Under the pieces are notes generated by a model that saw only the letters and a program-made list of their open reading frames with translations, was not told where the DNA came from and made no database searches. Positions 28,084 through 41,455 of a stretch of 64,000 nucleotides of DNA are shown one piece after another. Numbering within the stretch: position 1 is the first letter of the stretch; every line of letters begins with the position of its first letter. The stretch comes from an uncultured Nitrososphaerota archaeon. GTDB lineage: Archaea > Thermoproteota > Methanomethylicia > Culexarchaeales > Culexmicrobiaceae. The translations under genes were made by a program, and so were the position numbers. The stretch is from contig CAZCCB010000001.1 in the NCBI GenBank assembly GCA_964497155.1, forward strand, positions 32,766-96,765. Reading direction: 5' to 3'.

Positions 28084-30900
28084 TTACTCCCAAAATGGTC
28101 TTGTTCTCAAATATTCTTTCTCAGCTTCAAGTAAATCTAAATAAAATTCATCTTCATCTTCATGATATTTCCTAAGTATTCTGGCTGCAACTGTAGGTCC
28201 AATACCTCTAGCTGAAAGTGCAATAATGGCTTTCTTACCATAAGTCATAACTAATCCAACAGTTTTCCTAAGTTTCTCAAATTCCTCCATTTCACTTCTA
28301 CTTAACCTTCTTCTTTTCTTCCATTTCTTCAATATTTTGATTAAATTAGTTTTGCTTGGATGAGCCGCACCAATAGCTTTAGCACCGCATTTTGGGCATC
28401 TAATTTCATTTGGAATATACTTGATTTTTCTAATTGTATGCCAATTTCCACAGTAAACACATATCAGTAATACTTCCTTATCAAGTAGTCTAGCTTTCAT
28501 AATTTCAGTTAATGTTGCCAATGCTTTTTTGGGAGGGATTAAATCGTATGGTAATGCTACATTAAGTATATAGTATGCCAGTGTCGAGACTCCCTCTTTA
28601 ATAGATCCATCGTAAATTTCCACTTTAACTTCTCTATTCCTTATTTTCTCAAGATAGTTAAATAATCTATTGATATCGAAGTAGTCATGTAATGTTTCAT
28701 TAATGGCTTCTTCTTCAACGGGAGTTCCTTCAAGTAACCTTAATATTCTATTAATCTTACTTAATGGAGCTTCTTTAGATAATATTCCAAATCTTTTAGC
28801 TACATGATATAATTTCCATTTAAAAATTTCACTTGATTTTATTGCTTCATTAATTTCTCTCATCGTATTACATAGTTGCATTAATAGTTTTGATATTGAA
28901 TGAGCCTTAATTGCCTTAGGTAGGCTTATTAATACTCTATATGGGTCACTAAATACTCTAACGCTAGTTTTTAATCTCTTAGTTAGTTCATAGCCTAATA
29001 ATACTGCCAACGCCTTATTTACTCTAGTTCCAAGGCATGAATGAATTACAATTATATTTCCCAATCCCTCAATAACAACTCTATTATTTGTTGGTAATGG
29101 TATTCCGCATGAAATATGTTCTCCCAATTCCTTTAAGGCTTTATTTAATGCCCTACTAGTTAATGGATATGTTTCCGCTTTAATGGATCCATTAATTAAT
29201 TTCTCTCTTAATTCACCCACTTCTTGAGCAATTTCATATGGAACTGGAATTAATTCTCCAATCCAAGCTGGTATCGCTCCAATTTCATCTTCAACCTGAA
29301 CTACATAAACTCTGCAATCTCCTTCTGATATTGTAATAGTTTTCCACGTTCTTCCAGCTAATATGAATGGCTCCTTTTTAAATCCATGAATTGCAATAAA
29401 TTCTTCATCAAGACTTCCAATAGGTTTTCTTGAGGCAATGTCTATTACAATAAACTTCTTAATATCTGGAATTACCGATAAATTTTCGTAATAGTATTTC
29501 CATGAACCTCTTCTACATTTAACGATTTTACTTTCATTATTAACTTCAAATTTTAAAATTTTAATTTCAGCTAGTAATGATGCAACTTTCTCTAAATCAT
29601 TAATAGTTAAATTTCTATACGGATAGGCTCTTCTAAATACTTTCAATGCATAATTTAAATCTAATTTTCTTAAATCCATAGTTAATCCTACAAGTTGATG
29701 AGCTAAAACATCAAGTGACCTTTCATATATTTCAGTTTTCTCCAAATTTTTTTCAAGAGCTCTTCTTGCAATCACAGCTGATTCTAAAATATCATCAACA
29801 TTCGAGGCTAAAATTAACCCTCTAGATACTTCCCATAATTTATGTCCAGCTCTACCAATTCTCTGAATCATTTTTGTTACCTGTCTAGGGGACATATATT
29901 GAATAACATAATTTGCTGTTCCAATATCAAGCCCCAATTCTAATGACGATGTACAAACAAGCAGATTTAGCATTCCTTTCTTAAACATTTTTTCAGCTTC
30001 AATTCTCTCTTCTTTAGATAATGATCCATGATGAACCTTAATTTTTAAATTTGAATCTAAAAGTTTTAGTCTTGAAGCTAATGCTTCAGCCATCTCCCTA
30101 GTATTTGTAAATAGTAATGTTGGACCTTCTCTATTAGCGATTCTAATTATATATTTTAGCTTACTTATTGCTGATGATGAAATTTCAAATTTTTCAGCTA
30201 AAGTTTCATTTCCCTCTTCCTCTGCTACATCAACTATTATTTCAAATTTCTTTTCAGCTGAGACATTAATTATTTGAACATCACGATTTGTTCCAACCAA
30301 AAATTTACCGACAATTTCGGGTGAACCAATAGTTGCAGATAAGCCTATTCGTTGAAATTCCCTCTTAGTAATTTCCCTTAATCTTTCTAAGGCTAATGCT
30401 AATTGTACTCCTCTTTTATCCGAAGCTAATTCATGAATTTCATCTATAATAATCCATTTAATATTACGTAAATGTCCCCTTAACACTCTACCCGGAAGAA
30501 TTGCCTGTAAAGTTTCAGGTGTAGTTATTAGTATTTGTGGGGGCTTAATTGCCTGCAATCTTCTTATTCTTTGAGGTGTATCTCCATGCCTAATGGAGAC
30601 ATTAATATTTAATTCACTGGCTATTTTAACCATCCTTCTAAAAACATCCCTATTTAATGCTCTAAGTGGAGTTATATATAATGCGTAAATTCCCCCTTCA
30701 ATTTCCCTTTCAATAATTTTATTGAATATTGGAAATAATGCGGCTTCAGTTTTACCTGAACCAGTAGGTGCAATTAGAAGGACATTAAATCCTGCTAATA
30801 TATATGGAATACCCTTTTCCTGAGCTATTGTAGGCTTATCATATCCATACTTCCTAATTACACTCCTTAATTTCTGATTTAATTTTTCGAAAACATTCAT
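28084..30900 (-). CDS. lhr: Lhr-like large DEAD/DEAH-box ATP-dependent helicase with C-terminal zinc ribbon
   Basis: Walker A IAPTGSGKTEAA, motif II DEIHEL and a SAT-like motif. It is 938 aa long, with C-terminal CVYCGNW...CPKCG. Confidence 0.7.
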   Translation of the reverse strand: MNVFEKLNQKLRSVIRKYGYDKPTIAQEKGIPYILAGFNVLLIAPTGSGKTEAALFPIFNKIIEREIEGGIYALYITPLRALNRDVFRRMVKIASELNINVSIRHGDTPQRIRRLQAIKPPQILITTPETLQAILPGRVLRGHLRNIKWIIIDEIHELASDKRGVQLALALERLREITKREFQRIGLSATIGSPEIVGKFLVGTNRDVQIINVSAEKKFEIIVDVAEEEGNETLAEKFEISSSAISKLKYIIRIANREGPTLLFTNTREMAEALASRLKLLDSNLKIKVHHGSLSKEERIEAEKMFKKGMLNLLVCTSSLELGLDIGTANYVIQYMSPRQVTKMIQRIGRAGHKLWEVSRGLILASNVDDILESAVIARRALEKNLEKTEIYERSLDVLAHQLVGLTMDLRKLDLNYALKVFRRAYPYRNLTINDLEKVASLLAEIKILKFEVNNESKIVKCRRGSWKYYYENLSVIPDIKKFIVIDIASRKPIGSLDEEFIAIHGFKKEPFILAGRTWKTITISEGDCRVYVVQVEDEIGAIPAWIGELIPVPYEIAQEVGELREKLINGSIKAETYPLTSRALNKALKELGEHISCGIPLPTNNRVVIEGLGNIIVIHSCLGTRVNKALAVLLGYELTKRLKTSVRVFSDPYRVLISLPKAIKAHSISKLLMQLCNTMREINEAIKSSEIFKWKLYHVAKRFGILSKEAPLSKINRILRLLEGTPVEEEAINETLHDYFDINRLFNYLEKIRNREVKVEIYDGSIKEGVSTLAYYILNVALPYDLIPPKKALATLTEIMKARLLDKEVLLICVYCGNWHTIRKIKYIPNEIRCPKCGAKAIGAAHPSKTNLIKILKKWKKRRRLSRSEMEEFEKLRKTVGLVMTYGKKAIIALSARGIGPTVAARILRKYHEDEDEFYLDLLEAEKEYLRTRPFWE

Positions 30901-30902
30901 TC

Positions 30903-31091
30903 CTAAATCTTCCTCAAAAACTTCATTCTCTCCCTATGCATTCTAAGTTCTTTTCTTAAGAAATCCCTTAAAGCCATTCTTATAATTTCACTTCTAGATG
31001 GATAAACCTTAATTTTAACTAATTCATCCATTATTTCAATATATGTCTCTGGTAATCTGACGCTTATGACCTTCAATTCACCATGCACCAA
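30903..31091 (-). CDS. ribbon-helix-helix (CopG/Arc/MetJ-like) DNA-binding protein
   Basis: ISVRLPETYIEIMDELVK...SRSEIIRMALRDFL is a typical RHH fold pattern. It is immediately upstream of, and likely co-transcribed with, the helicase. Confidence 0.6.
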   Translation of the reverse strand: MVHGELKVISVRLPETYIEIMDELVKIKVYPSRSEIIRMALRDFLRKELRMHRERMKFLRKI

Positions 31092-31178
31092 AATAAAACT
31101 ATATTATCGCCTAATTAATCTAATCTTCGGTTTAGTTTCATGAAATTTAAATTACTAAAACCAAATAATTTAATCTAG

Positions 31179-31958
31179 GTGAAGTATTTGGGAAAAATTT
31201 CGGTATCTAGAGTTAAAACTGGTATCCCAATTCTCGATAAGGCATTACCATTAGGTATTCCTAGAAATAATATGATTATGATTTTAGGTGAAGGTGGAAC
31301 AGGTAAATCAGTATTCATATTACAATTAATGTATGAAAGATTGAGGAGAAATGAACCATGTATTTTCATGTGTTTTGATGATGCACCAATAGCTATTGAG
31401 CAAAATGCAATGGGTTTCAATTGGAATTTAAGAGAATATGCGGATAAAGGATTATTAAGATTTATTGATTGCTATTCATTTAGAATGAAGCCGGATAAAA
31501 CTAGAATTCCCAAACATATAGTTTACATTGATAATCCAAGAGATTTACATCAATTAACACAAAGATTCACCGGTCTTATGGATGAAATGAATATGAATAA
31601 TGCCGGAGCTGTTTTCATAGATTCATTAACAGAATTAATGTCAATAACTGAATCTGCAATTGCATTAGAAACAATTAAGACTTGGAGAGCTGAAGCAGCT
31701 AAGGAAAGATTAGTAACTGTATTTGCAACATTTCATTTCGGAATTAAACCATTTGATGATTTAGAGCAAATACTTGAATATGTAGTTGATGGAATCATAG
31801 ATTTAAGATATGACCCTACGTTAATGCAAAAGGGTATTTTAATTAAACAATTTAGAGTTAGAAAGATGAAAGGAGCTCCACATCAAACAACATGGTTTAC
31901 ATTTACAGTTACAAATAATGGAATAGAAGAATTAACAATTAAATATGAGAAATCATAA
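31179..31958 (+). CDS. KaiC-like RecA-superfamily ATPase (single domain; FlaH/RadA-paralog-like)
   Basis: GIPILDKALPLGIPRNNMIMILGEGGTGKS Walker A in a KaiC/RadA-paralog context. 259 aa. Confidence 0.65.
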   Translation: MKYLGKISVSRVKTGIPILDKALPLGIPRNNMIMILGEGGTGKSVFILQLMYERLRRNEPCIFMCFDDAPIAIEQNAMGFNWNLREYADKGLLRFIDCYSFRMKPDKTRIPKHIVYIDNPRDLHQLTQRFTGLMDEMNMNNAGAVFIDSLTELMSITESAIALETIKTWRAEAAKERLVTVFATFHFGIKPFDDLEQILEYVVDGIIDLRYDPTLMQKGILIKQFRVRKMKGAPHQTTWFTFTVTNNGIEELTIKYEKS

Positions 31959-31961
31959 TTT

Positions 31962-32720
31962 CTAATATCTCACGGCATCTTTCCATAAATAGTTAAAGTA
32001 TATTCTTGCAAGCTTAACTAATTCACTATGATTAGACCATATTGCAATCAAGCTATTATCTTCTCCACCAAGTATAATTAATGCTTCCCGCTCATCAATA
32101 ATTAATCCTCCACCAAACATTTTCTCCCTAAACCTAACTTCAATTCCATAATTAACCAAGTCATTAAAACTTTCTCTTTGATCAATATTAACTAAAACTT
32201 TAATACTAATTCCTTTAAGGGCATAACTGAATAATCTATCTCTAATTAATCCATATATTAATTTAGATTTAAATGGAATTGCAACCTCAATTTCACTATT
32301 AACTCTATCTAAACTTTTTAAAACCCTATTTATAATTGAAGTAGCACCTCTCAAAATAATTACTTCAGGTTTTTCTTGAACGTAAATTCTATCATAAATT
32401 GGTTGAAGTTCATCAATCAAATTTCTCCCTAATTCACTAAATTCTCTTTCAATTTTACTCAATGATTTCTTTATACTTTCAATTGGAGGTTTTGCAAAAT
32501 ATTTTTTAGGCTTTCCTCCTTCAACATTAATCCAACCCTTCTCTCTAAGTTTAGATAATGCTTCATAAATTTTCGAATATGGTATCATCGCAATAGCACT
32601 TAATTCATTTGCAGTTAATGGTCCATATTCAATAAGTGCAATGTATGCTTTCGCCTCATAATTGCTTAAACCTAATTTTCTAAGTTTAATTAGAATTTCA
32701 TTTGAACTCATACAAATCAC
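31962..32720 (-). CDS. TrmB-family transcriptional regulator
   Basis: N-terminal wHTH LGLSNYEAKAYIALIEYGPLTANELSAIAMIPYSKIYEALSKLREKGWI is the classic TrmB signature. Confidence 0.8.
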   Translation of the reverse strand: MICMSSNEILIKLRKLGLSNYEAKAYIALIEYGPLTANELSAIAMIPYSKIYEALSKLREKGWINVEGGKPKKYFAKPPIESIKKSLSKIEREFSELGRNLIDELQPIYDRIYVQEKPEVIILRGATSIINRVLKSLDRVNSEIEVAIPFKSKLIYGLIRDRLFSYALKGISIKVLVNIDQRESFNDLVNYGIEVRFREKMFGGGLIIDEREALIILGGEDNSLIAIWSNHSELVKLARIYFNYLWKDAVRY

Positions 32721-32799
32721 CGGATGAATTGTTGGATTAACTTGAAATATACTTAGTTAAGTTAAATTTATAATGCTTACTATTAAAGGGTGATGCAAA

Positions 32800-35742
32800 T
32801 TGCAGGTGCTAAGAAAAACTAAAAGTTTATGCCCTAAATGTCTAAAAGTTATTGATGCAGAAGTATTCGTTGATGATAATAATGTTGTTAAAATAAGAAA
32901 AACATGTCCAGATCATGGTTATTTTGAAGACACCTATACTTTTTCAGATTATGAACTATATAAATGGGCCGAAAAATACGCTCACGATGGAAATGGAATT
33001 GAAAATCCATTAACAAAGGAAGTTAATGGATGCCCATTCGACTGCGGAATATGTCCAAATCATAAATCACATACAGTACTAGCCATAATTGATGTCACAA
33101 ATAGGTGCAATATGAAGTGCCCAGTATGTGTATCTGGGGACGAAATATTATTAGTCAAAAATTCACGTGAAGGTAAGTTTTTAACCTTAGAAGAAATTGC
33201 TACTTATGCTTTTAATACGATAAAGCCGATACCTCTATGTCCAAATGTCGACTATGTAAATGTTTTCCATCTCTCCATAATGGTTCCCATAGTAGAGGCA
33301 AATGGGAGAATTAAGTGGTCAAGGATAGTGAAAATTTACCGCAAAAGAAATGTTCCAAAACTACTGGAAATAGAAACCAATAGTGGTCGACGAATAAAGG
33401 TGACACATGATCATCCACTAATAATATTTAGGAATAATTGTATGCAAAAAATTCTTGCTAGAGAGTTAAAATTAGGAGATTACGTTTGCATAGCAGGTAA
33501 AATAGACTTAGGAGAGAGGAAACAAGTTAAAGAACTCGATATTCTCAAGCTTTTAGAGAAAGCCCCCTTGGAAGAACTTAATCAGGTTTATGTTAGAAAT
33601 CTCGGTTCATACTTAAAGTGGCTGAGGAGAAGTGTAGGAACTTACAAGAGAATTAGTGAAATTGCTGGGATAAATGTTTGGAATTATTGGTGGAGCACTA
33701 AAGGTTACATGCCATTAATTCACTTCTACAAATTAATTAGGAAATTTGGTTTACCATTAGAGTTTAAAAGAGAAATTAGGATAGGTGTGAAAGGCAAGAG
33801 ATATAATCTACCTGCGATACTACCAATAACAAGGGATTTTGCCCGCTTCCTAGCTCTATTTGTAGCTGAGGGTCACTTAGAGTATGTCCCTAAGCAAGCT
33901 TATAACGTAGTTATAACTGCAAAAGACGTTGAAGAAGTGCTTTCAATTCTTAAAAGGATAGGGCTTGACGCAAAAGTAGTGGATTACTCTAAGTATGGGA
34001 AAAGGCATAAAACTCCTCAAATAAAGGTATCAAATAAAATTTTAACCTTAGTTTTCCTCTATGGATTAAAGCTTGGGAGAACTGCAAGTGAAAAAAGATT
34101 GCCAAGCTTCACTCCATCATTGCCGATGGATATCATAAAGACAATTCTCTCCGAGTTATTTGACAGAGATGGATCAGTAACTCGAACTTCACGTCGTACT
34201 TGTGTAATCTATAAAACGACATCACGAATTCTTCTACAGCAACTACAATACCTGCTATCCATTTTCGGAATTTTCTCAAGAACTTACACTTCTTATTCCT
34301 CAAATAATCCGTTGGCAAAGCATGACGCCTATGAACTACAAATATCAACTAAGCCAGAGATCGAAAAACTCTTACGCTTGCTATGTAGTGAATCGAAAAC
34401 TGTCAAGAAGCTTAGAAAGCTACTCCCAAGTAAAGGTAAAACGACTTTTGAAAAACAGAGCGATATTATCTTAGATCGCGTGAAAAATATTAGGGAAATT
34501 GAGAATCTATCCAATACCGTCTACGATCTAGAAGTTCAACACTCCTCACATAACTTCCTCGTTGGAACAATTTTCGTTGGAAATTGCTTCGCTAATGCTG
34601 CAACTACAGGGTACGTATATGAGCCTTCATTAGAGCAAATTAGGAAAATGCTGATCACACTTAGATCAATAAAGCCAGTACCACCACCAGCAATACAGTT
34701 TAGCGGTGGAGAGCCAACTGTACGTAAGGACTTACCTGAAATAGTTAGGATGGCTAAGGAGGTTGGATTTGATCATGTTGAAGTTGATACTAATGGATTA
34801 GTTTTAGCTGAAAATATTGACTATTACAAAGCACTCCTAGATGCTGGAATGAGCACTATCTATTTGCAATTTGATGGATTAACTGACGATATTTACATTA
34901 AACTTAGAGGAATGCCATTAATGAAGAAGAAACTTAAGGTAATTGAAAATGCTAGAAAACTTGGTCATGAAAGTATAGTATTAGTAGTAACTTTAAGTAA
35001 AGGTGTAAATGATCATCAAATGGGAGACATAATTAAATTCGCAATGGAAAATTCAGATGTAATTAGATGTGTAAATGTTCAACCAATATCATTTAGTGGC
35101 AGAGCAACTCAACTTGAAAGACAACAATTACGAATTAATACGAGTGACTTTATGAAGCTAGTTGAAGAACAAACTAATGGATTAATAACTAGATGGGATT
35201 TCAGACCAGTACCATCAGTAGTCCCAATATCGAGAGCTGTAGGAGCACTTAAAGGAAAACGATATGTAGAATTTACTACAAGTCCCTTCTGTGGAGTAGC
35301 AACATTCTTAGTTAAAACAGATAAGGGTGAATGGGTTCCAATAACTAGGCTAGCTGATGTAGATAAATTCTTCAATGCAATGGAGAAAATTTATGAAGAT
35401 GCAATTAGAGGGAGAAAAGCTAGAGCATATATGAGAGCTATAGCAGCATTAAGGTACGTTAAATTTGGATTATTAAAAGATCTTGTATGGCCAGTAATTA
35501 AAGAGGGAAGCTATAAGGCGCTGGGAAGATTCATGAGAAGAGTAATTATGATCGGATGCATGCACTTCATGGATGTATGGAACTTCGATTTACAAAGAGT
35601 ACAAAGATGCGTAATACACTATGCACTTCCAGATGGAACTGTTAGACCATTCTGTTCACATAACAATATACATAGAGAACTAATAGAGAAAAAATTCAGC
35701 ATACCCTATGAAGAATGGCGAAGAATGGCAACATCTAAATAA
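32800..35742 (+). CDS. intein-containing radical SAM protein, COG1964-like; probable tetraether lipid synthase (Tes/GDGT-MAS) homolog
   Basis: N-terminal rubredoxin-like Cys pairs (CPKC...CPDHG) and CPFDCGICPNH. Radical SAM motif CNMKCPV-C is interrupted after CPV by an intein. After the intein the extein resumes CFANAAT...QFSGGEPT...VDTNG. The spliced product would be about 494 aa. Confidence 0.6.
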   Translation: MQVLRKTKSLCPKCLKVIDAEVFVDDNNVVKIRKTCPDHGYFEDTYTFSDYELYKWAEKYAHDGNGIENPLTKEVNGCPFDCGICPNHKSHTVLAIIDVTNRCNMKCPVCVSGDEILLVKNSREGKFLTLEEIATYAFNTIKPIPLCPNVDYVNVFHLSIMVPIVEANGRIKWSRIVKIYRKRNVPKLLEIETNSGRRIKVTHDHPLIIFRNNCMQKILARELKLGDYVCIAGKIDLGERKQVKELDILKLLEKAPLEELNQVYVRNLGSYLKWLRRSVGTYKRISEIAGINVWNYWWSTKGYMPLIHFYKLIRKFGLPLEFKREIRIGVKGKRYNLPAILPITRDFARFLALFVAEGHLEYVPKQAYNVVITAKDVEEVLSILKRIGLDAKVVDYSKYGKRHKTPQIKVSNKILTLVFLYGLKLGRTASEKRLPSFTPSLPMDIIKTILSELFDRDGSVTRTSRRTCVIYKTTSRILLQQLQYLLSIFGIFSRTYTSYSSNNPLAKHDAYELQISTKPEIEKLLRLLCSESKTVKKLRKLLPSKGKTTFEKQSDIILDRVKNIREIENLSNTVYDLEVQHSSHNFLVGTIFVGNCFANAATTGYVYEPSLEQIRKMLITLRSIKPVPPPAIQFSGGEPTVRKDLPEIVRMAKEVGFDHVEVDTNGLVLAENIDYYKALLDAGMSTIYLQFDGLTDDIYIKLRGMPLMKKKLKVIENARKLGHESIVLVVTLSKGVNDHQMGDIIKFAMENSDVIRCVNVQPISFSGRATQLERQQLRINTSDFMKLVEEQTNGLITRWDFRPVPSVVPISRAVGALKGKRYVEFTTSPFCGVATFLVKTDKGEWVPITRLADVDKFFNAMEKIYEDAIRGRKARAYMRAIAALRYVKFGLLKDLVWPVIKEGSYKALGRFMRRVIMIGCMHFMDVWNFDLQRVQRCVIHYALPDGTVRPFCSHNNIHRELIEKKFSIPYEEWRRMATSK
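33127..34584 (+). mobile_element. intein with LAGLIDADG homing endonuclease domain
   Basis: Block A CVSGDEILLVKN at the start. Two LAGLIDADG motifs (LALFVAEGHL, LSELFDRDGSV). Block F VYDLEVQHSSHNFLV and block G GTIFVGN followed by extein Cys+1. 486 aa, inserted in frame. Confidence 0.8.
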
Positions 35743-36196
35743 TAATCTCCTTCAATTTTATTCGGGGGCAATTTTGGTAACCGAAATTAGAGAATTTAAA
35801 TCTGTAAATGAACTCATAGACCACATAAATCATGAAATTAATAACATTACAGTAACAATAGAAAGCTATATGAAGAAAATTAATGAAATTAAAGATAAAA
35901 TTGAGAAGCTAAATAAAATATCAGATTATTTAACTAAAGTTTTAGGTAAAAGACCTGAAACAATTTCTCCTCAAGAAGTTAATTTTATGGGGCTAAAAAT
36001 TATAATAAATCCATCTCTCAAACATGAATTAGAAGTTTTTGAAGATATAATTAAAAAGTTAAATGATAAATTAATAGCACTACAAAAAATAAGAAAAGCA
36101 ATTGAATCTCTAGGATTAAGTGAATATGAAGAATTAGAATTAAAAGTTGTCATTATTGATGAATTACCCGTAAAATTAATGATTAAATTGGAGTGA
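35708..36196 (+). CDS. coiled-coil hypothetical protein at the head of the pilus-like locus
   Basis: 162-aa ORF overlapping the 3' end of the radical SAM gene by 35 nt and strongly alpha-helical/coiled-coil. The true start may be the internal Met MKKINEI. Confidence 0.35.
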   Translation: MKNGEEWQHLNNNLLQFYSGAILVTEIREFKSVNELIDHINHEINNITVTIESYMKKINEIKDKIEKLNKISDYLTKVLGKRPETISPQEVNFMGLKIIINPSLKHELEVFEDIIKKLNDKLIALQKIRKAIESLGLSEYEELELKVVIIDELPVKLMIKLE

Positions 36197-36213
36197 TAAT
36201 ATATGATACTTGA

Positions 36214-38019
36214 GTGGTGTTTAAATTGGGCTTCTCAGATTTTGCCTATAAATATTTCTTCGGTATTGGTAGAATCATACTTAAACTTCGTTCTTCACTT
36301 CCAGATGAAATTAGAAAAGCTGGAATGAATATTCACTATGAAGTTTATGCTTCGATAATTGGTTTCGTAATCTTTGTTCTACTAATTATTTTTTCTTCCT
36401 CTATCTCATTAATAGTTTACATTTACATAATGTATTTCAATTTCATACCATTAAATAAAGTTATATTATTAAGCTTAATGTTTACGGTGATATTAGTTCT
36501 CGTAATTTCAATAAGCACTATTTATCCTAAACTACTCGCAGCTAATAGAGTTTCTGCATATGATCAAGAAATTCCATATGCTGTGGCATATCTAAGTATA
36601 ATGACCTCTGGAGGTATGTCCCCCTATATTGCTATTGAGAGATTGGGTTTTGCTAAAATAGTCTTTAAAAAGTTTTCCCAGCTTGCAATGAGATTTACAG
36701 TTATGGTTAGAGCTATTGGATGGGATCCATTAACTGCACTCGAAGATATTGCACATAGAAATCCAAGCGGACTTTTCCATGATTTGGTTATGGGTTTCAT
36801 TGCAACATTAAGAGCTGGAGGTGATATTGCGGATTACTTAAATAAGAAGTCTAGAGATTTATTCAATATTCTCATTAATAAAATTAAGTCAGCTGGAGAA
36901 AGAATGAGCGTTATACTCGAATCATATTTAGCTGTAGCTTTCATATTGCTATTAACTCTAAACGCAATATATCTCGTAAGCTTATCAATTTCAGGACTAA
37001 GCTTACCTGGAATGAATGAAGCAACATTGTTTATCTCGTCATATATACTATTACCCTTCATGTCTGGATTAATGCTCTATTTATCAGATATAGTTCAGTA
37101 TAAGGAGCCTGGAATTGAATTAAGTCCATATAAAGTCTATTTAATGGTATCAATACCTATAATGATAATTCTAACACTATTCTTTGTTGCACCTTCCTTC
37201 TTGCCATTTAACCATCCAATAATCAGATATACAATGTATCTTTATGAACCATTGAAGATAATATTAAGTAAATTTAATATAAATGAAATTTATGTTCCTG
37301 GAATTGGTTTAAGTATTTCATTAGCAATCTCAACTATTCCTGCAGCAATTTCTGAACATGTTGTATGTGGAAAGCAGCGTAAAATTGCTAATGGAATAAT
37401 TAGATTTCTGAGGGATCTTGTTGAAATTAGAAAGACGGGACTATCACCTGAGAAATGCATAATTTCTCTTTCTAAAAGAGATTATGGAGTTTTCTCTAAG
37501 TATTTAAGGGAGATGGCTGTTCAAATTTCACTTGGATTTTCACTATCTAAAATTTATTCCAGAATTATTAGAAAAATTAAAGCTTGGAGAGCAAGAGTTT
37601 TCTTATACATTTTAACTGAGGCTATTGAAGTTGGCGGAGGTACTCCTGAAACATTAGAGAATATTGCTCATTTCGCGGAGCTTACTCAAGAATTGGAGCG
37701 TGAAAGAGCTTCAGCAATTAAAACTTTAATTATAATCCCATATTTAGGTGCAATAGTTATTGTTAGTTCAATAATTCTATTAACCTCATTTATGGCTACA
37801 CTTGCTACTGGTGTTTCAGCATATGTTATTGCTGCAAAAATGGTTATTCCAGCGGCAATAATTAATGTTTACTTTATGGGTCTAGTTGCTGGTAAAATAT
37901 CTACAGGTACTGTTTCAGCAGGCTTTAAGCATGCATCCTTACTATGTCTAATTTCACTATTAACTATGTTTTCATCACCATATTTAGCAACTATGATGAG
38001 GGGGATAACTGGTGGTTAA
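36214..38019 (+). CDS. TadC/FlaJ-like polytopic membrane protein of a type IV filament system (two T2SS-F domains)
   Basis: 601 aa with two repeats resembling T2SS protein F domains (AYDQEIPYAVAYLSIMTSGGMSPYIAIERL; ...ILTEAIEVGGGTPETLENIAHFAE), each followed by TM helices. Confidence 0.7.
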   Translation: MVFKLGFSDFAYKYFFGIGRIILKLRSSLPDEIRKAGMNIHYEVYASIIGFVIFVLLIIFSSSISLIVYIYIMYFNFIPLNKVILLSLMFTVILVLVISISTIYPKLLAANRVSAYDQEIPYAVAYLSIMTSGGMSPYIAIERLGFAKIVFKKFSQLAMRFTVMVRAIGWDPLTALEDIAHRNPSGLFHDLVMGFIATLRAGGDIADYLNKKSRDLFNILINKIKSAGERMSVILESYLAVAFILLLTLNAIYLVSLSISGLSLPGMNEATLFISSYILLPFMSGLMLYLSDIVQYKEPGIELSPYKVYLMVSIPIMIILTLFFVAPSFLPFNHPIIRYTMYLYEPLKIILSKFNINEIYVPGIGLSISLAISTIPAAISEHVVCGKQRKIANGIIRFLRDLVEIRKTGLSPEKCIISLSKRDYGVFSKYLREMAVQISLGFSLSKIYSRIIRKIKAWRARVFLYILTEAIEVGGGTPETLENIAHFAELTQELERERASAIKTLIIIPYLGAIVIVSSIILLTSFMATLATGVSAYVIAAKMVIPAAIINVYFMGLVAGKISTGTVSAGFKHASLLCLISLLTMFSSPYLATMMRGITGG

Positions 38020-38797
38020 GAAATTAATTGTTGGGCAAGCAGACGTTATTTCAATAGTTATTTTAACGTCGATCATTATCATATTAGCTATTTCAGTCTT
38101 AAATTATGCTGTTTTTTCACTTGAAAAAGCCGCTCAACAAGCTGAATTTGAAAAAGTCAAGAACATTTTAAGGGAAATGGCATTTTATACAGTTGATTCA
38201 GTAATTAATGGAATTAATTATGAAATATCATTTCCAACTAGAACTACTAGACTTAACTTCATAACTTCAAAATACAAGTTGAGATTAGAAATTTACGGTT
38301 TATCTAAGAAACCAATTGAACGTATTGTTGATGATGAAATTATTGAAGTAATATGCTTGGGTGGAGAATTTGTTTCTCCTTATGAGGAAGTTATTGTTGG
38401 TTTAAGAGGTAGAGTTGCATTTATTAATGATATTTATACAACGCCATTAGTTGTGGTAAATTATAATGAATTTTTCGGTAGAACAGCAGTATCACTAAAT
38501 TTTTCAAGACTATTAATTCAAGACTATAAATTCTCTAATAATATGATTTTAGATTTAACTTATATCGATATTTCATGGACTTCAAAGGGAGAGGTAAGTC
38601 TAGGTAAAATTAGCATTATTTACATTGGGTCAAGTAATGATGTAATTTATGAGGAATATGTAAAGAAACCCATTAAAGTCATGTTAAAACTATATTTGGA
38701 TTCTAAGTTGCTTGATGAAACCGTTATTGAAGTTAATGGGAAAACCTATTTTACTATTAGACTCGTAACTCATAAAGTTCAATATATATTGAGGTGA
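38012..38797 (+). CDS. pilin-like protein with N-terminal class III-type signal peptide (putative minor pilin/assembly protein)
   Basis: N-terminus MVKKLIVGQADVISIVILTSIIIILAISV: a basic residue, G-Q, then a hydrophobic helix. The rest is beta-rich. The start overlaps the TadC-like stop. Confidence 0.45.
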   Translation: MVKKLIVGQADVISIVILTSIIIILAISVLNYAVFSLEKAAQQAEFEKVKNILREMAFYTVDSVINGINYEISFPTRTTRLNFITSKYKLRLEIYGLSKKPIERIVDDEIIEVICLGGEFVSPYEEVIVGLRGRVAFINDIYTTPLVVVNYNEFFGRTAVSLNFSRLLIQDYKFSNNMILDLTYIDISWTSKGEVSLGKISIIYIGSSNDVIYEEYVKKPIKVMLKLYLDSKLLDETVIEVNGKTYFTIRLVTHKVQYILR

Positions 38798-38801
38798 TTT
38801 C

Positions 38802-39272
38802 ATGCCGAAATCGCCAGTAACAACAATTATTGGATTAACAATGCTATCAATAATATTCATGATAATACTTCAATATTCAATAACCTTAACTCTAACCTAT
38901 GAGGAGAGAATTGCTGAAAAAGAATTGAAAGTCATTGCAAATAGTATTGTAAGTCAAATAATGGATGCATTAACTCTAGCTGAAAACCTAAATGAAAATG
39001 GAGAAGTCCAAGTTAAATTAGAAATACCTGAGGAATGCAGTTTAGGTCATTATGAAATAACATTAACTAATCAAGATAATACTCCAGTAATTATATTAAA
39101 ACCGATTACTAGACCAATACCTAAAATAACTTTGGAACTCCTAATTTCTAAGAGGAAAGTTTCAATAACAACTACAGTTGTTTATAGTGGAGCTAAATGG
39201 AATTACATTAAAGTCAGAAATGTAAATGGAATATTCCATGTTCAATTAGTCCATATTGGTGGTGAAACTTGA
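38802..39272 (+). CDS. pilin-like protein with N-terminal hydrophobic helix
   Basis: MPKSPVTTIIGLTMLSIIFMIILQYS N-terminal helix, then a beta-rich domain of about 130 aa. Translationally coupled to its neighbours. Confidence 0.4.
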   Translation: MPKSPVTTIIGLTMLSIIFMIILQYSITLTLTYEERIAEKELKVIANSIVSQIMDALTLAENLNENGEVQVKLEIPEECSLGHYEITLTNQDNTPVIILKPITRPIPKITLELLISKRKVSITTTVVYSGAKWNYIKVRNVNGIFHVQLVHIGGET

Positions 39273-40342
39273 AGGAACCAATCGAATTTTCAATAGCTTC
39301 AATGACAATAATACTCATATTACTATTAACTGTAAATCTATTAAACTTAATATATAGTGTGGAATTTAAAGTCAATATTAAAGCTAAATCTCTAATGAAT
39401 AAATTAGAATTAACAATAGGATCACCATCAAATTGGGATGAATCAATAATTTTAGGAGGCAAAATAGTAGATTTTGGATTAAGCTCATTAAATGGATTAT
39501 CATTAGATAAGGATAAAGTTAACTTAATAACATATAATTATATTGGTTCAATAAAATTTTTACGTAAAAATCCATTATACATAGATCCATTAGCCTTTAA
39601 AAAACTATTAAATATTAAGAATAAAGAGTTTAGATTGGATTTTAAACCAGCATTAAATATTACAATTAAAGTTTCTAGAATTAAGCTAAAGTATAGAATT
39701 GAGGTTAAAATATATGATTTAAATGGAAAAGATTTAACTTCAAAAGCTTCAATTACATATCTAATAGTTTATAGTTATCGTTTAGAAACTAAATATGCCA
39801 TCTATATTAATGGGCCACCATCTATAAGTGTTAGCGGATCAATCAGAGCTTTAGCTGTAATTGCAAATGTCAATGGAATAAAATCAATAGCATATTGGCT
39901 CTATAAGTTCATTCCATTTGGAATTATAATAGGTTCATACATAATTTCTCCTATTCCGCTTTCTTTAGCTGAGGGAACATTGCTCTTTTGCGAATATATG
40001 GGTAAAGACTTTAAGTGTAATGTGAAGTTAAGATTTATAGACCGTATTGGTGAAATCTTCATTTATAAGTTTTATAATGATAATTGGAGTAAAGTAGTTA
40101 GTCATAATATTGATGATAAGGTTGTAATGCTAATTGTAAATACAATTAGATTTAAAGTATTACTCTCAATTTTCCTTGCATATTCAGCTCCAATATACTA
40201 TGATAATAATTTCTCAGGTTTGCCAAAATTAAGTTATGGGAATCTCAATCTACCAGTCGAGTATTCAGTCGAGAGAAGATTTGTATTAATTGGAGAAATG
40301 AATTATGAAATTAAGCTTTACTTATGGAGGATTGAGAAATGA
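39269..40342 (+). CDS. pilin-like/pilus-associated protein with N-terminal hydrophobic helix
   Basis: MKEPIEFSIASMTIILILLLTVNLL N-terminus, then a beta-rich domain. 4-nt overlap (ATGA) with the upstream gene. Confidence 0.4.
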   Translation: MKEPIEFSIASMTIILILLLTVNLLNLIYSVEFKVNIKAKSLMNKLELTIGSPSNWDESIILGGKIVDFGLSSLNGLSLDKDKVNLITYNYIGSIKFLRKNPLYIDPLAFKKLLNIKNKEFRLDFKPALNITIKVSRIKLKYRIEVKIYDLNGKDLTSKASITYLIVYSYRLETKYAIYINGPPSISVSGSIRALAVIANVNGIKSIAYWLYKFIPFGIIIGSYIISPIPLSLAEGTLLFCEYMGKDFKCNVKLRFIDRIGEIFIYKFYNDNWSKVVSHNIDDKVVMLIVNTIRFKVLLSIFLAYSAPIYYDNNFSGLPKLSYGNLNLPVEYSVERRFVLIGEMNYEIKLYLWRIEK

Positions 40343-40737
40343 GAAGAGGACAAATATTCCTAGTCAGTGCATTTGCTGCAGTAATTATCGTATTAATGTT
40401 TATTTCAGTAGCAATGCAAATTGGAGAATTAACTACAATTAGAACTGAAAATAGGAAATTAATTGATAATGGCTTACTTGCTATTCAAGCAATTATCAAG
40501 TCAGGAGCTATAGAAAAGCTAATTGAAGATAGAGATGATATTCCAATTAGAAATTTAATGGAAACGCTATTGCCTTCAAACACTTACTATTCTTTAACAT
40601 TAACTTGTGATTCCAATAAAATTGAAATTTACAATAAACCTAATTTTGAACCTAAAGTAACAATTAAATATATTTATACTAGTGTTGATTTAAAAACAAT
40701 TTTCACAATAACTTTGAGATTATCGATTGGTGGTTGA
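40339..40737 (+). CDS. pilin-like protein with canonical class III signal peptide
   Basis: MRRGQIFLVSAFAAVIIVLMFISVAM has the (K/R)G|Q prepilin peptidase motif. 132 aa. Confidence 0.55.
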   Translation: MRRGQIFLVSAFAAVIIVLMFISVAMQIGELTTIRTENRKLIDNGLLAIQAIIKSGAIEKLIEDRDDIPIRNLMETLLPSNTYYSLTLTCDSNKIEIYNKPNFEPKVTIKYIYTSVDLKTIFTITLRLSIGG

Positions 40738-41455
40738 ATTGAAAGGTCAATTTACAATATTATCTGCAGTAACATTAATGATTGCTATAATAACAATTTC
40801 AATAATAATTGCCAATGCAAATTTGAGATTGAGAAGGTATCAGGAATATTCATTACCACCAATTATAATTAATATTCTTCAAGATTATTCAAGAATGTTA
40901 TCAGCATCACTTTCTAAGGCTACTAATGAAGCGTACTCAGTAATTTATCTTAAGAGAGGAAATATTAATTATGCAGTTAAGAAAGCTGAAGATATTTCAA
41001 AGAATTTCGTTGATAAATGGATTAAATCATTTATTGATGCTTATGCTGGATTGGGAGTAAATCTCAATGTTAAAGTTAAGTTAGATTTAAGGTGGAGTAA
41101 GGGTACTTCATGGGCTTCTATATTAACTGGAGAATTAATTGTAGAAATTCCATCAATTGGCTTTAAATTAAATAGAATTATTAAGCAAGCTGGCATATCA
41201 ATTGAAAGAGTTTTTATTAGTAAGATTGGAAAACAGTACTATTTGCATGTTGTTGGGATAAGTTTGGATGAGGGGAGAGGTATTCCACTCAAAATTGAAA
41301 AATTAATTATTGATGGTAGAGAAGTTAATTTTTATCATTACTATCTTGGTGGTGGATTAAATAGGTATCTAATTAAAGTGCGTGAAATTCATAGATATGT
41401 TGAGGGTTATTTTGAATATAACAATATAATTATTCGAGTTTACCTGGAAATTTAA
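40727..41455 (+). CDS. pilin-like protein with canonical class III signal peptide
   Basis: MVVELKGQFTILSAVTLMIAIITISIIIANA has the KG|Q motif followed by a hydrophobic helix. Confidence 0.55.
   Translation: MVVELKGQFTILSAVTLMIAIITISIIIANANLRLRRYQEYSLPPIIINILQDYSRMLSASLSKATNEAYSVIYLKRGNINYAVKKAEDISKNFVDKWIKSFIDAYAGLGVNLNVKVKLDLRWSKGTSWASILTGELIVEIPSIGFKLNRIIKQAGISIERVFISKIGKQYYLHVVGISLDEGRGIPLKIEKLIIDGREVNFYHYYLGGGLNRYLIKVREIHRYVEGYFEYNNIIIRVYLEI

What the first reader, a model, noticed from the sequence alone, without database searches (positions are those of the whole stretch)
32800..35742. Intein inserted exactly in the CxxxCxxC radical SAM motif of a putative tetraether-lipid-synthase-like enzyme
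The 980-aa ORF reads ...VTNRCNMKCPV-[CVSGDEILLVKN...486 aa...VQHSSHNFLVGTIFVGN]-CFANAATTGYV... The insert has intein blocks A, F and G and two LAGLIDADG motifs (LALFVAEGHL, LSELFDRDGSV). Its first Cys occupies the third cluster-ligand position of the radical SAM motif, so the motif (CNMKCPVC) is only restored after splicing by the +1 Cys. Before the intein the host has rubredoxin-like CPKC/CPDHG pairs and a CPFDCGICP cluster. After it the host has the GGEPT and DTNG motifs. This architecture recalls the COG1964 radical SAM enzymes to which archaeal GDGT/MAS tetraether synthase (Tes) belongs. I do not recall an intein in this enzyme family.
Basis: partly seen in the sequence, partly recalled or inferred. 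Interest (0 to 1): 0.75.

Follow-up and report, generated by a model that had tools for sequence, protein, structure and literature searches.

The report
Homing intein splitting tetraether lipid synthase
The gene for the archaeal enzyme that makes membrane-spanning tetraether lipids (Tes) is interrupted, inside its iron-sulfur binding motif, by a self-splicing mobile intein; this is real but ordinary, because NCBI already annotates intein-containing Tes with a related intein at the same site.

Summary
ORF 32800-35742 (+) encodes a 980-aa precursor. A 486-aa insert (33127-34584) lies between V109 and the third Cys of CNMKCPV|C. The insert has every class-1 intein hallmark except the penultimate His, which is Gly. 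It also has a two-motif LAGLIDADG endonuclease core.

The spliced 494-aa extein is a bona fide Tes/GDGT-MAS. It scores 620 bits on NCBIfam NF045702 (cutoff 450) and E=4e-153 against PDB 7TOL, with all metal ligands aligned.

A syntenic metagenome locus (L004) carries a 91%-identical Tes with no intein. The only gap in the DNA alignment is the 1458-bp intein.

The "no intein known in this family" part is wrong. NCBIfam NF045703 is "tetraether lipid synthase Tes, intein-containing". Its Thermococcus member WP_297487288.1 has a homologous intein at the identical site. Related inteins occupy the same CX3CX2|C position in other radical SAM families. Tes homologues carry inteins at three further sites, each immediately before a conserved Cys.

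Verdict: a new member (Culexarchaeia-like lineage) of a known kind. A Cys-3/Cys1 redox-trap role, as reported for the P. abyssi MoaA intein, is possible but untested.

The parts
32800..35742 (+). Tes precursor gene (980 aa including the intein; TTG start; stop at 35740-35742)
   Evidence: ORF list; 592.6 bits on NF045702 even when unspliced. A 99% identical allele lies on an independent ENA contig, L003.
32767..32794 (+). Likely archaeal promoter and ribosome-binding signals: TATA-like TTTATAA (32767-32773) and SD-like GGGTGAT (32788-32794) ahead of the TTG start
   Evidence: Read directly from the sequence. Inference only; no archaeal promoter model was run.
32800..33126 (+). N-extein, aa 1-109. 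It holds the rubredoxin-like CX2C...CX2H (C11, C14, C36, H39; 32830-32916), the [4Fe-4S]N motif CPFDCGIC (33031-33054), and the first two radical-SAM ligands C103 and C107 (CNMKCPV, 33106-33126)
   Evidence: Pfam Zn_ribbon_HMPTM 60 bits. Gapless alignment to 7TOL. Ligand assignments in MJ0619 come from PMC9433317: C9x2C12x20C33x2H36; C73/C77/C80; Cys102/Cys105.
33127..34584 (+). Intein, 486 aa (precursor aa 110-595)
   Evidence: PF14890 69.3 bits (cutoff 35.8), TIGR01445 37.4 bits (cutoff 24.5), and 196 bits to positions 156-603 of NF045703. Absent from the syntenic locus L004.
33127..33162 (+). Intein block A; Cys1 (33127-33129) is the N-terminal splicing nucleophile
   Evidence: C1 is invariant in 4 site-a Tes inteins. 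TIGR01445 intein_Nterm matches residues 1-99.
33400..33417 (+). Intein block B, VTHDHP (T93-x-x-H96 of the intein)
   Evidence: T93, D95 and H96 are invariant in alignment A1. This region aligns to the Pho RadA and PI-PkoII HINT regions.
33850..33879 (+). LAGLIDADG motif 1 (LALFVAEGHL; catalytic-position Glu248 of the intein)
   Evidence: A243, L244, F245, E248 and G249 are invariant. Aligns to the PI-PkoII motif LLGYYVSEGY.
34147..34179 (+). LAGLIDADG motif 2 (LSELFDRDGSV; catalytic-position Asp348 of the intein)
   Evidence: PF14528 56.6 bits (cutoff 22.5) over intein residues 340-417. R347, D348 and G349 are invariant.
34519..34584 (+). Intein blocks F and G (VYDLEVQHSSHNFLVGTIFVGN). Terminal Asn486 is at 34582-34584; the penultimate residue is Gly, not His
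   Evidence: D467, H475 and N486 are invariant; the penultimate residue is G or S in all Tes site-a inteins.
34585..35742 (+). C-extein, aa 596-980. Cys+1 (34585-34587) is the third radical-SAM cluster ligand (equivalent to MJ0619 Cys105). Then GGEPT (34705-34719), DTNG (34786-34797), CGVATF (35290-35307), CMHFMD (35557-35574), RCVIHY (35605-35622) and PFCSHN (35647-35664)
   Evidence: Alignment to 7TOL. Radical_SAM Pfam 95 bits on the spliced protein. Coordinates.

Best explanation
This is a canonical class-1 intein carrying a LAGLIDADG homing endonuclease. It is inserted in the gene for tetraether lipid synthase (Tes/GDGT-MAS) of a Culexarchaeia-like archaeon, immediately before the codon for the third Cys of the radical-SAM CX3CX2C motif.

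Splicing steps (inferred from established intein chemistry):
- The 980-aa precursor is translated.
- Intein Cys1 (C110) makes an N-S acyl shift at the V109-C110 bond.
- Cys+1 (C596) attacks the thioester to give the branched intermediate.
- Asn486 of the intein (N595) cyclises and releases the 486-aa intein.
- An S-N shift joins V109 to C596.

Splicing recreates CNMKCPVC. Only then can C103, C107 and the former C596 bind the [4Fe-4S] cluster that cleaves SAM, so Tes activity depends on splicing.

The excised intein's LAGLIDADG domain presumably cuts intein-free Tes alleles at the CPVC/FANA coding sequence and spreads by homing. This fits the patchy distribution among close relatives.

What is shown: the anatomy, the homologies, the precise presence/absence polymorphism, and purifying selection. 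What is inferred: actual splicing and endonuclease activity.
For: Extein:
- The spliced extein is Tes: NF045702 620.6 bits against a cutoff of 450.
- 7TOL GDGT-MAS gives E=4.3e-153. DVTNRCNMKCPVCFANA aligns without a gap to DVTNRCNLNCPICFANA, and all ligand motifs are conserved (ligands from PMC9433317).

Intein:
- Pfam PF14890 and PF14528 score above threshold, as does TIGR01445.
- PI-PkoII gives E=1e-18 by sequence.
- The AF2 endonuclease core has pLDDT of about 80-90. Foldseek finds PI-PkoII at E=1.7e-15, then TliVMA, PI-SceI and PI-PfuI. I-DmoI has TM 0.67-0.70.
- Catalytic residues C1, T93/H96, E248, D348, D467, H475 and N486 are invariant in four alleles.

Presence/absence:
- Intein-free Tes alleles at 91, 88, 84, 80 and 77% identity all have an intact CNM(R/K)CP(V/I)CFANA.
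- The 91% allele lies in the same Lhr-RHH-KaiC-TrmB-Tes-T2SSF synteny.
- Its DNA aligns to window 28796-33128 and 34585-38266, leaving only the intein unmatched.

Selection between two intein-bearing genomes (window versus Ca. Culexmicrobium profundum L001):
- Extein omega is about 0.045, which implies the host enzyme is functional.
- Intein omega is about 0.13, and the endonuclease part about 0.16.

Same site elsewhere:
- Homologous inteins sit at this site in Thermococcus WP_297487288.1, in a Bathyarchaeota MAG and in Ca. C. profundum.
Against: - The penultimate intein residue is Gly (Ser in other Tes site-a alleles) instead of the usual His that assists Asn cyclisation. From my own knowledge, inteins without this His can still splice, but efficiency here is unknown.
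- The HINT part of the AF2 model was low-confidence (pLDDT below 50 for residues 1-132 and 435-486), so the splicing fold rests on profile and sequence evidence only.
- dS is saturated (about 2), so the omega values are rough.
- No protein-level evidence of splicing or DNA cleavage is available.
- A second, intein-free Tes copy elsewhere in the genome cannot be excluded. None is in this window.
Confidence: 0.9

Rival explanations
1. Regulatory (conditional) intein. Cys107 (position -3) and intein Cys1 form a CPVC pair, and the precursor still displays a pseudo-CX3CX2C. Under oxidising conditions a Cys-3/Cys1 disulfide would block the first splicing step. Alternatively, premature metal or cluster binding to Cys1 would do the same. 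Either way, the oxygen-sensitive Tes would mature only under reducing, iron-sulfur-replete conditions. This adds to the best explanation rather than excluding it.
For: - The junction C(-3)-P-V|C1 can be read directly from the sequence.
- The P. abyssi MoaA intein has a native Cys-3/Cys1 disulfide that controls splicing of an oxygen-labile enzyme (PMC3922620; PMC10663303).
- Related inteins recur at the same CX3CX2|C position in at least three radical SAM families.
- Relatives come from anoxic hydrothermal sediments of Guaymas Basin.
Against: - Any intein inserted at this position inherits Cys-3 automatically, because that residue is a cluster ligand. The pair therefore needs no selective explanation.
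- Inteins generally home into conserved active sites.
- Very close relatives do well without the intein.
- The exact MoaA insertion position could not be verified, because Callahan 2011 is not held.
Confidence: 0.2
2. A domesticated or immobile intein. The splicing function is retained, but the endonuclease no longer homes, and the intein persists only by vertical descent with occasional precise loss.
For: Intein divergence tracks extein divergence across alleles: 64/86, 47/54 and 45/55% identity. This fits long co-inheritance. Only two GTDB species representatives carry a close relative of this allele.
Against: - Both LAGLIDADG acidic residues and the surrounding motif residues are invariant.
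- Omega of the endonuclease part is about 0.16, not near 1.
- The 91%-identical allele lacks the intein, while the more distant 86% allele has it.
- Homologous inteins at the same site occur in Thermoproteota-related lineages and in Thermococcus, which implies horizontal spread.
Confidence: 0.25
3. A splicing-dead insert. The gene is an inactivated Tes, effectively a pseudogene, and tetraether synthesis is lost or supplied by another copy.
For: The penultimate His is replaced by Gly. No direct evidence of splicing exists.
Against: - The extein is under strong purifying selection between two intein-bearing genomes (omega about 0.045).
- The 2940-nt reading frame is intact in three independent contigs.
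- All nucleophiles and block B/F residues are invariant.
- Thermococcus site-a inteins also lack the His (Ser) and are kept in RefSeq genomes.
Confidence: 0.04
4. A host-family-specific inserted domain or an assembly chimera, not an intein.
For: None found.
Against: - Curated intein and LAGLIDADG models hit above threshold.
- Of the Tes-family hits retrieved have the motif uninterrupted.
- Independent contigs from different samples carry the same insert.
- The insert is precisely absent from the syntenic allele.
Confidence: 0.01

Closest known systems
Thermococcus sp. 'tetraether lipid synthase Tes, intein-containing' (RefSeq WP_297487288.1; NCBIfam NF045703)
   Same: - The host enzyme is the same.
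- The insertion point is identical: CX3CX2|C...N|CF.
- The intein is homologous (32% identity, E=2e-58; the window intein scores 196 bits on the model's intein segment).
- It has a LAGLIDADG endonuclease.
- It also lacks the penultimate His (Ser).
   Different: - The window protein scores only 614.6 bits against a cutoff of 1700, so it falls outside that narrow model.
- The exteins are 39% identical.
- The intein is 486 aa rather than 453 aa.
- The host is a Culexarchaeia-like lineage (Thermoproteati) rather than Thermococcus.
- The penultimate residue is Gly.
Pyrococcus abyssi MoaA intein (Callahan et al. 2011, cited in PMC3922620 and PMC10663303)
   Same: It is an intein in an oxygen-labile radical SAM enzyme with a native Cys-3/Cys1 pair at the N-junction. 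The window has the same C-x-x|C1 geometry (CPV|C).
   Different: - The host enzyme is different (MoaA versus Tes).
- Redox control was shown experimentally for MoaA and has not been tested here.
- I could not verify from the held literature that the MoaA site is the same CX3CX2|C position. That rests on inference from the motif.
PI-PkoII (Thermococcus kodakarensis Pol intein-2 homing endonuclease, PDB 2CW7)
   Same: It is the best solved-structure relative of the intein. The sequence match is E=1e-18 over both the HINT and endonuclease parts, and Foldseek gives E=1.7e-15. Both are two-motif LAGLIDADG inteins.
   Different: The host is a DNA polymerase. Identity is only about 20%. PI-PkoII has the usual penultimate His-Asn (my own knowledge).
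Methanocaldococcus jannaschii GDGT-MAS / Tes (MJ0619, PDB 7TOL/7TOM; PMC9433317)
   Same: The spliced extein aligns end to end at 513.8 bits. It keeps the rubredoxin CX2C..CX2H, the [4Fe-4S]N CX3CX2C, the RS CX3CX2C, and the Met439/Tyr459 equivalents in CMHFMD and IHY.
   Different: MJ0619 has no intein, and the paper does not mention inteins (0 occurrences).

Membership tests
Intein (class 1, HINT splicing domain) | Cys/Ser nucleophile at intein position 1 | tested here: met
   Cys1 (33127-33129) is invariant in 4 alleles.
Intein (class 1, HINT splicing domain) | Block B T-x-x-H | tested here: met
   VTHDHP; T93 and H96 are invariant.
Intein (class 1, HINT splicing domain) | C-terminal Asn followed by Cys/Ser/Thr at +1 | tested here: met
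   ...FVGN|CFANA; N486 is invariant, and Cys+1 is the third RS ligand.
Intein (class 1, HINT splicing domain) | Penultimate His in block G (common but not universal) | tested here: not met
   Gly in the window, P0001 and P0002. Ser in P0003, P0004, P0161 and P0162. Inteins lacking this His are known to splice (my own knowledge), so this lowers certainty about efficiency, not membership.
Intein (class 1, HINT splicing domain) | Match to curated HINT/intein profiles above threshold | tested here: met
   PF14890 69.3 bits against 35.8. TIGR01445 37.4 bits against 24.5. TIGR01443 (C-terminal) scores 13.6 bits, below its 15.6 cutoff.
Intein (class 1, HINT splicing domain) | HINT fold | tested here: inconclusive
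   The AF2 model is low-confidence in the HINT parts. Sequence alignments to solved HINT domains (Pho RadA intein E=5e-9, MJ0781 KlbA) support it.
Intein (class 1, HINT splicing domain) | In-frame insert that is precisely absent from orthologues, with extein continuity restored on removal | tested here: met
   L004 is a syntenic allele lacking exactly 33127-34584. The spliced protein aligns without a gap to 7TOL.
Intein (class 1, HINT splicing domain) | Protein splicing demonstrated | not testable with these tools
   Needs expression followed by MS or western blot.
LAGLIDADG homing endonuclease (two-motif, intein-borne) | Two LAGLIDADG motifs, each with a conserved acidic residue | tested here: met
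   LALFVAEGHL (E248) and LSELFDRDGSV (D348) are invariant.
LAGLIDADG homing endonuclease (two-motif, intein-borne) | Profile and fold match | tested here: met
   PF14528 56.6 bits against 22.5. The AF2 core has pLDDT of about 80-90. Foldseek finds PI-PkoII, TliVMA, PI-SceI and PI-PfuI, and I-DmoI at TM 0.67-0.70.
LAGLIDADG homing endonuclease (two-motif, intein-borne) | Cleavage of the intein-free allele | not testable with these tools
   The candidate target is the L004 sequence around ...TGTCCAGTG|TGCTTTGCGAAT....
Tetraether lipid synthase Tes / GDGT-MAS (NCBIfam NF045702 equivalog) | Score at or above the curated cutoff (450 bits) | tested here: met
   620.6 bits for the spliced extein and 592.6 bits for the precursor.
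Tetraether lipid synthase Tes / GDGT-MAS (NCBIfam NF045702 equivalog) | Four metal sites: rubredoxin CX2C..CX2H, [4Fe-4S]N CX3CX2C(+His), RS CX3CX2C, and a C-terminal cluster with the labile Met | tested here: met
   C11/C14/C36/H39; C78/C82/C85; C103/C107/C596 (contiguous only after splicing); CMHFMD, RCVIHY and PFC. The C-terminal cluster Cys ligands are not named in the paper text, so that part rests on alignment only.
Tetraether lipid synthase Tes / GDGT-MAS (NCBIfam NF045702 equivalog) | Biphytanyl C-C bond-forming activity | not testable with these tools
   Needs an enzyme assay or lipid analysis.
NCBIfam NF045703 'Tes, intein-containing' (exception model) | Score at or above 1700 bits | tested here: not met
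   614.6 bits, whereas Thermococcus P0161 scores 2080.8. The window protein is therefore not a member of that narrow model, although it shares the insertion site and a homologous intein.

The most novel reading that the evidence does not exclude
Tes may be an intein hotspot in which every insertion uses a conserved Cys as the +1 nucleophile. For sites a-c that Cys is a metal-cluster ligand; for site d the ligand status is unverified. The CX3CX2|C intein seen here, with its built-in Cys-3/Cys1 (CPV|C) pair, would act as a post-translational redox or Fe-S-availability switch. It would gate tetraether membrane-lipid synthesis in anaerobic thermophiles, as reported for the P. abyssi MoaA intein.
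Probability: 0.15. Interest if true: 0.6.

Novelty: new member of a known kind. Interest (0 to 1): 0.3.

Why it matters
For annotation, the gene should be called an intein-containing Tes. The closest database entry (P0002, Ca. Culexmicrobium) is labelled only "radical SAM protein". The window protein scores 614.6 bits on NCBI's intein-containing Tes model, well below its 1700-bit cutoff, so that model would not name it.

Unrecognised inteins can distort surveys that use Tes as a marker of GDGT producers, for example through length filters or split HMM hits.

Biologically, the locus is a clean natural pair of intein-plus and intein-minus alleles in the same synteny. That makes it suitable for testing homing, and for testing whether splicing at a radical-SAM cluster ligand depends on redox state.

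The existence of an intein here is not a new principle.

Tried and rejected
1. The word-indexed homologue search with intein profile A1 returned only one weak helicase-intein hit. I replaced it with the exhaustive HMMER search.

2. AF2 on the intein with a 4-sequence alignment gave confident structure only for the endonuclease core.

3. Window versus the 99% allele L003: the intein showed lower dS (0.012) than the extein (0.054; Fisher p=0.005), which could suggest recent homing. I rejected this because 20 of the 34 differences lie in one 72-nt patch (gene nt 2290-2361). The contrast therefore reflects a local recombination or assembly patch.

4. Callahan et al. 2011 (PMC3087850) is not held, so the exact MoaA insertion position was not verified.

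5. Literature searches combining intein with tetraether, GDGT or radical SAM found no paper describing a Tes intein. The GDGT-MAS and Culexarchaeia papers do not mention inteins.

6. The window has no tRNA, no Rfam family, no second Tes and no second related intein.

7. The sigma-70 promoter scan was uninformative for an archaeon.

8. The extein-only search list omitted P0001 and P0002, so it cannot be used to estimate how often Tes carries an intein.
Full report
**Observation**

The start is preceded by a TATA-like TTTATAA (32767-32773) and an SD-like GGGTGAT (32788-32794).

Translating and splitting the ORF places a 486-aa insert at aa 110-595, which is DNA 33127-34584. The junctions are DVTNRCNMKCPV|CVSGDEILLVKN and HNFLVGTIFVGN|CFANAATTGY.

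**What the two halves are**

After removing the insert, the 494-aa product behaves as follows:
- It scores 620.6 bits on the NCBIfam equivalog model NF045702, "tetraether lipid synthase Tes" (cutoff 450).
- It scores 513.8 bits (E=4.3e-153) against the crystal-structure sequence of M. jannaschii GDGT-MAS, 7TOL. The alignment covers residues 5-490.
- Across the junction the alignment has no gap: DVTNRCNMKCPVCFANA versus DVTNRCNLNCPICFANA.

The structure paper gives the metal sites of MJ0619: a rubredoxin site C9x2C12x20C33x2H36, the N-terminal [4Fe-4S] cluster on C73/C77/C80 plus a His, and the RS cluster on a CX3CX2C motif that includes Cys102 and Cys105 (PMC9433317). The matching residues here are C11/C14/C36/H39, C78/C82/C85, and C103/C107/C596. 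The Cys that follows the intein is therefore the equivalent of Cys105, the third ligand of the SAM-cleaving cluster. The equivalents of Met439 and Tyr459 (CMHFMD, IHY) are also conserved.

The insert itself gives these matches:
- Pfam Intein_splicing, 69.3 bits against a cutoff of 35.8.
- Pfam LAGLIDADG_3, 56.6 bits against a cutoff of 22.5.
- TIGR01445 (intein N-terminal region), 37.4 bits against a cutoff of 24.5.
- The intein endonuclease PI-PkoII, E=1e-18, over both the splicing and endonuclease parts.

An AlphaFold model built from four alleles was confident only for the endonuclease core (residues ~133-430, pLDDT ~80-90). That core finds PI-PkoII, the Tli VMA intein, PI-SceI, PI-PfuI and free LAGLIDADG enzymes such as I-DmoI (TM 0.67-0.70).

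In an alignment of four Tes inteins at this site, the following residues are invariant:
- Cys1.
- Block B T93-x-x-H96.
- The two LAGLIDADG acidic residues, E248 and D348.
- Block F D467 and H475.
- The terminal N486.

The one departure from the textbook pattern is the penultimate residue. It is Gly here and Ser in more distant alleles, never His.

**It is an insertion, not a host domain**

A search with the spliced extein found intein-free Tes proteins at 91, 88, 84, 80 and 77% identity. All have an uninterrupted CNM(R/K)CP(V/I)CFANA.

The 91% allele (P0039) lies on a 45.8-kb metagenome contig (L004) with the same gene order as the window: Lhr helicase, RHH, KaiC-like ATPase, TrmB regulator, Tes, a small ORF, and a T2SSF-type membrane protein. 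BLASTN aligns window 28796-33128 to L004 2-4329, and window 34585-38266 to L004 4328-8016, at about 72% identity. The only unmatched block is the 1458-bp intein.

Intein-bearing alleles exist on independent contigs:
- A 99% allele, L003.
- Ca. Culexmicrobium profundum GB-1867-035, L001. Its intein is 64% and its extein 86% identical to the window's, and the synteny is the same.
- A Guaymas Bathyarchaeota MAG, L002.
- Two further metagenome proteins.

The nearest intein-free allele (91%) is closer to the window's extein than the nearest intein-bearing species (86%). The element's distribution is therefore patchy, as expected for a mobile intein.

**Function of the parts**

Between the window and L001, both of which carry the intein, Nei-Gojobori estimates give these omega values:

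| Region | omega |
|---|---|
| Extein | about 0.045 |
| Whole intein | about 0.13 |
| Endonuclease segment | about 0.16 |

dS is saturated, so these values are approximate. They still argue that Tes is functional in intein-bearing genomes, which implies that splicing works. They also argue that the endonuclease is not decaying neutrally.

The most likely mechanism is the standard four-step class-1 pathway: an N-S shift at Cys110, trans-thioesterification to Cys596, cyclisation of Asn595, and an S-N shift. This recreates CNMKCPVC, after which the RS cluster can assemble. These steps are inferred from intein chemistry and were not observed.

**Comparison with what is known**

- NCBIfam contains an exception model, NF045703, "tetraether lipid synthase Tes, intein-containing". 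The window intein alone scores 196 bits on model positions 156-603, and the C-extein begins at model position 611. This indicates the same site.
- The exhaustive HMMER search with the intein profile recovered P0161. P0161 scores 2080.8 bits on NF045703 against a cutoff of 1700. It is RefSeq WP_297487288.1, [quoted passage not shown].
- The P0161 junctions are CNLACWY|CLPKDEE and VLISN|CFFYAKEG. Its intein is 32% identical to the window intein (E=2e-58).
- The window protein scores 614.6 bits on NF045703, so it is not a member of that narrow model. It is a divergent member of the same kind.

The same search shows related inteins at the identical CX3CX2|C position of other radical SAM families:
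- An HpnJ-like B12-binding enzyme, P0170: GCPARCVY|C...HN|CDYP.
- Proteins with FSGCxxRCV(Y/F)|C; P0183 and P0256 read ...HN|CQN(W/Y)DIS at the C-terminal junction, while the C-junction of P0185 was not determined reliably.

The reviews held describe the P. abyssi MoaA intein, whose native Cys-3/Cys1 disulfide blocks splicing of an oxygen-labile enzyme until conditions are reducing (PMC3922620; PMC10663303). The window junction has the same geometry, C107-P-V|C110. A redox-trap role is therefore a reasonable hypothesis. However, any intein at this position inherits Cys-3 automatically, and nothing here tests the idea.

No paper in the searchable library mentions an intein in Tes. The prior knowledge is at the level of database curation rather than publication.

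**Extra observation**

Tes homologues retrieved here carry inteins at four sites, and at each site a conserved Cys is the +1 residue:

| Site | Position | Role of the +1 Cys | Proteins |
|---|---|---|---|
| a | CX3CX2\|C | third RS ligand | this window and relatives |
| b | DVTNR\|C | first RS ligand | P0005-7, P0010 |
| c | CPxDCGI\|C | third ligand of the N-terminal cluster | P0008 |
| d | HPH\|CG(V/M)AT | ligand status unverified | second intein of P0010 |

**Verdict**

The identification of both the intein and Tes is correct, but the novelty claim is not. This is a new, divergent member, from a Culexarchaeia-like lineage, of an already catalogued kind. The clean pair of plus and minus alleles in the same synteny is useful for testing homing or redox-dependent splicing. 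Interest is modest.

Noticed in passing
P0005, P0006, P0007, P0008, P0010 (metagenome Tes homologues): Tes carries inteins at three further sites besides the one in the window. They lie before the first RS Cys (DVTNR|C...VSN|CNLRCPIC), before the third Cys of the N-terminal cluster motif (CPYDCGI|C...VGN|CPNHKSH), and before the conserved Cys of HPH|CG(V/M)AT. P0010 (Bathyarchaeia, 1415 aa) has two inteins. In every case the +1 nucleophile is a conserved Cys.
   Followed up: partly
P0170, P0183, P0185, P0256: Inteins related to the window intein sit at the identical CX3CX2|C position of other radical SAM families: an HpnJ-like B12-binding rSAM, and proteins with FSGCxxRCV(Y/F)|C (P0183 and P0256 read ...HN|CQN(W/Y)DIS at the C-junction). 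This motif position is therefore a recurrent intein site across the superfamily. The best non-Tes relatives overall are inteins in proteins that look like anaerobic ribonucleotide reductase (NrdD): P0159, P0160 and P0163. I assigned that host by eye from the sequences, not by a profile search.
   Followed up: partly
window 35089-35160 (gene nt 2290-2361) versus L003: Twenty of the 34 nucleotide differences between the window and the 99%-identical allele on ENA contig L003 cluster in this 72-nt stretch of the C-extein. This suggests a short recombination patch or a strain mix in one assembly.
   Followed up: no
window 35708-41455: Immediately downstream of Tes lies a 162-aa ORF (35708-36196) that overlaps the Tes 3' end by 35 nt. 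It is followed by a T2SSF (FlaJ/TadC-like) membrane protein (36214-38019) and several small ORFs with no Pfam hit or a sub-threshold DUF7266 hit (25.4 bits against a cutoff of 27.6). This may be an archaeal type IV pilus-like cluster. The same order is seen in L004.
   Followed up: no
window 28084-32720: The upstream neighbours are an Lhr-type DEAD helicase (28084-30900, -), a 62-aa ORF whose L004 counterpart has a Pfam RHH_1 hit (30903-31091, -), a KaiC-like ATPase (31179-31958, +) and a TrmB-family regulator (31962-32720, -) that is divergent from Tes. The order is conserved in L001 and L004. The TrmB gene could regulate Tes, but this was not examined.
   Followed up: no
window 1-64000: No tRNA genes and no Rfam family at gathering threshold were found in 64 kb of a ~30% G+C archaeal sequence.
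   Followed up: no
P0162 (1139 aa, ENA metagenome): This is another site-a intein-containing Tes. It has an unusual C-terminal tail rich in Cys and Gly (...GGCCGGSEKS...SGCCGGSSSGGSKGGCGC) that the other homologues lack.
   Followed up: no
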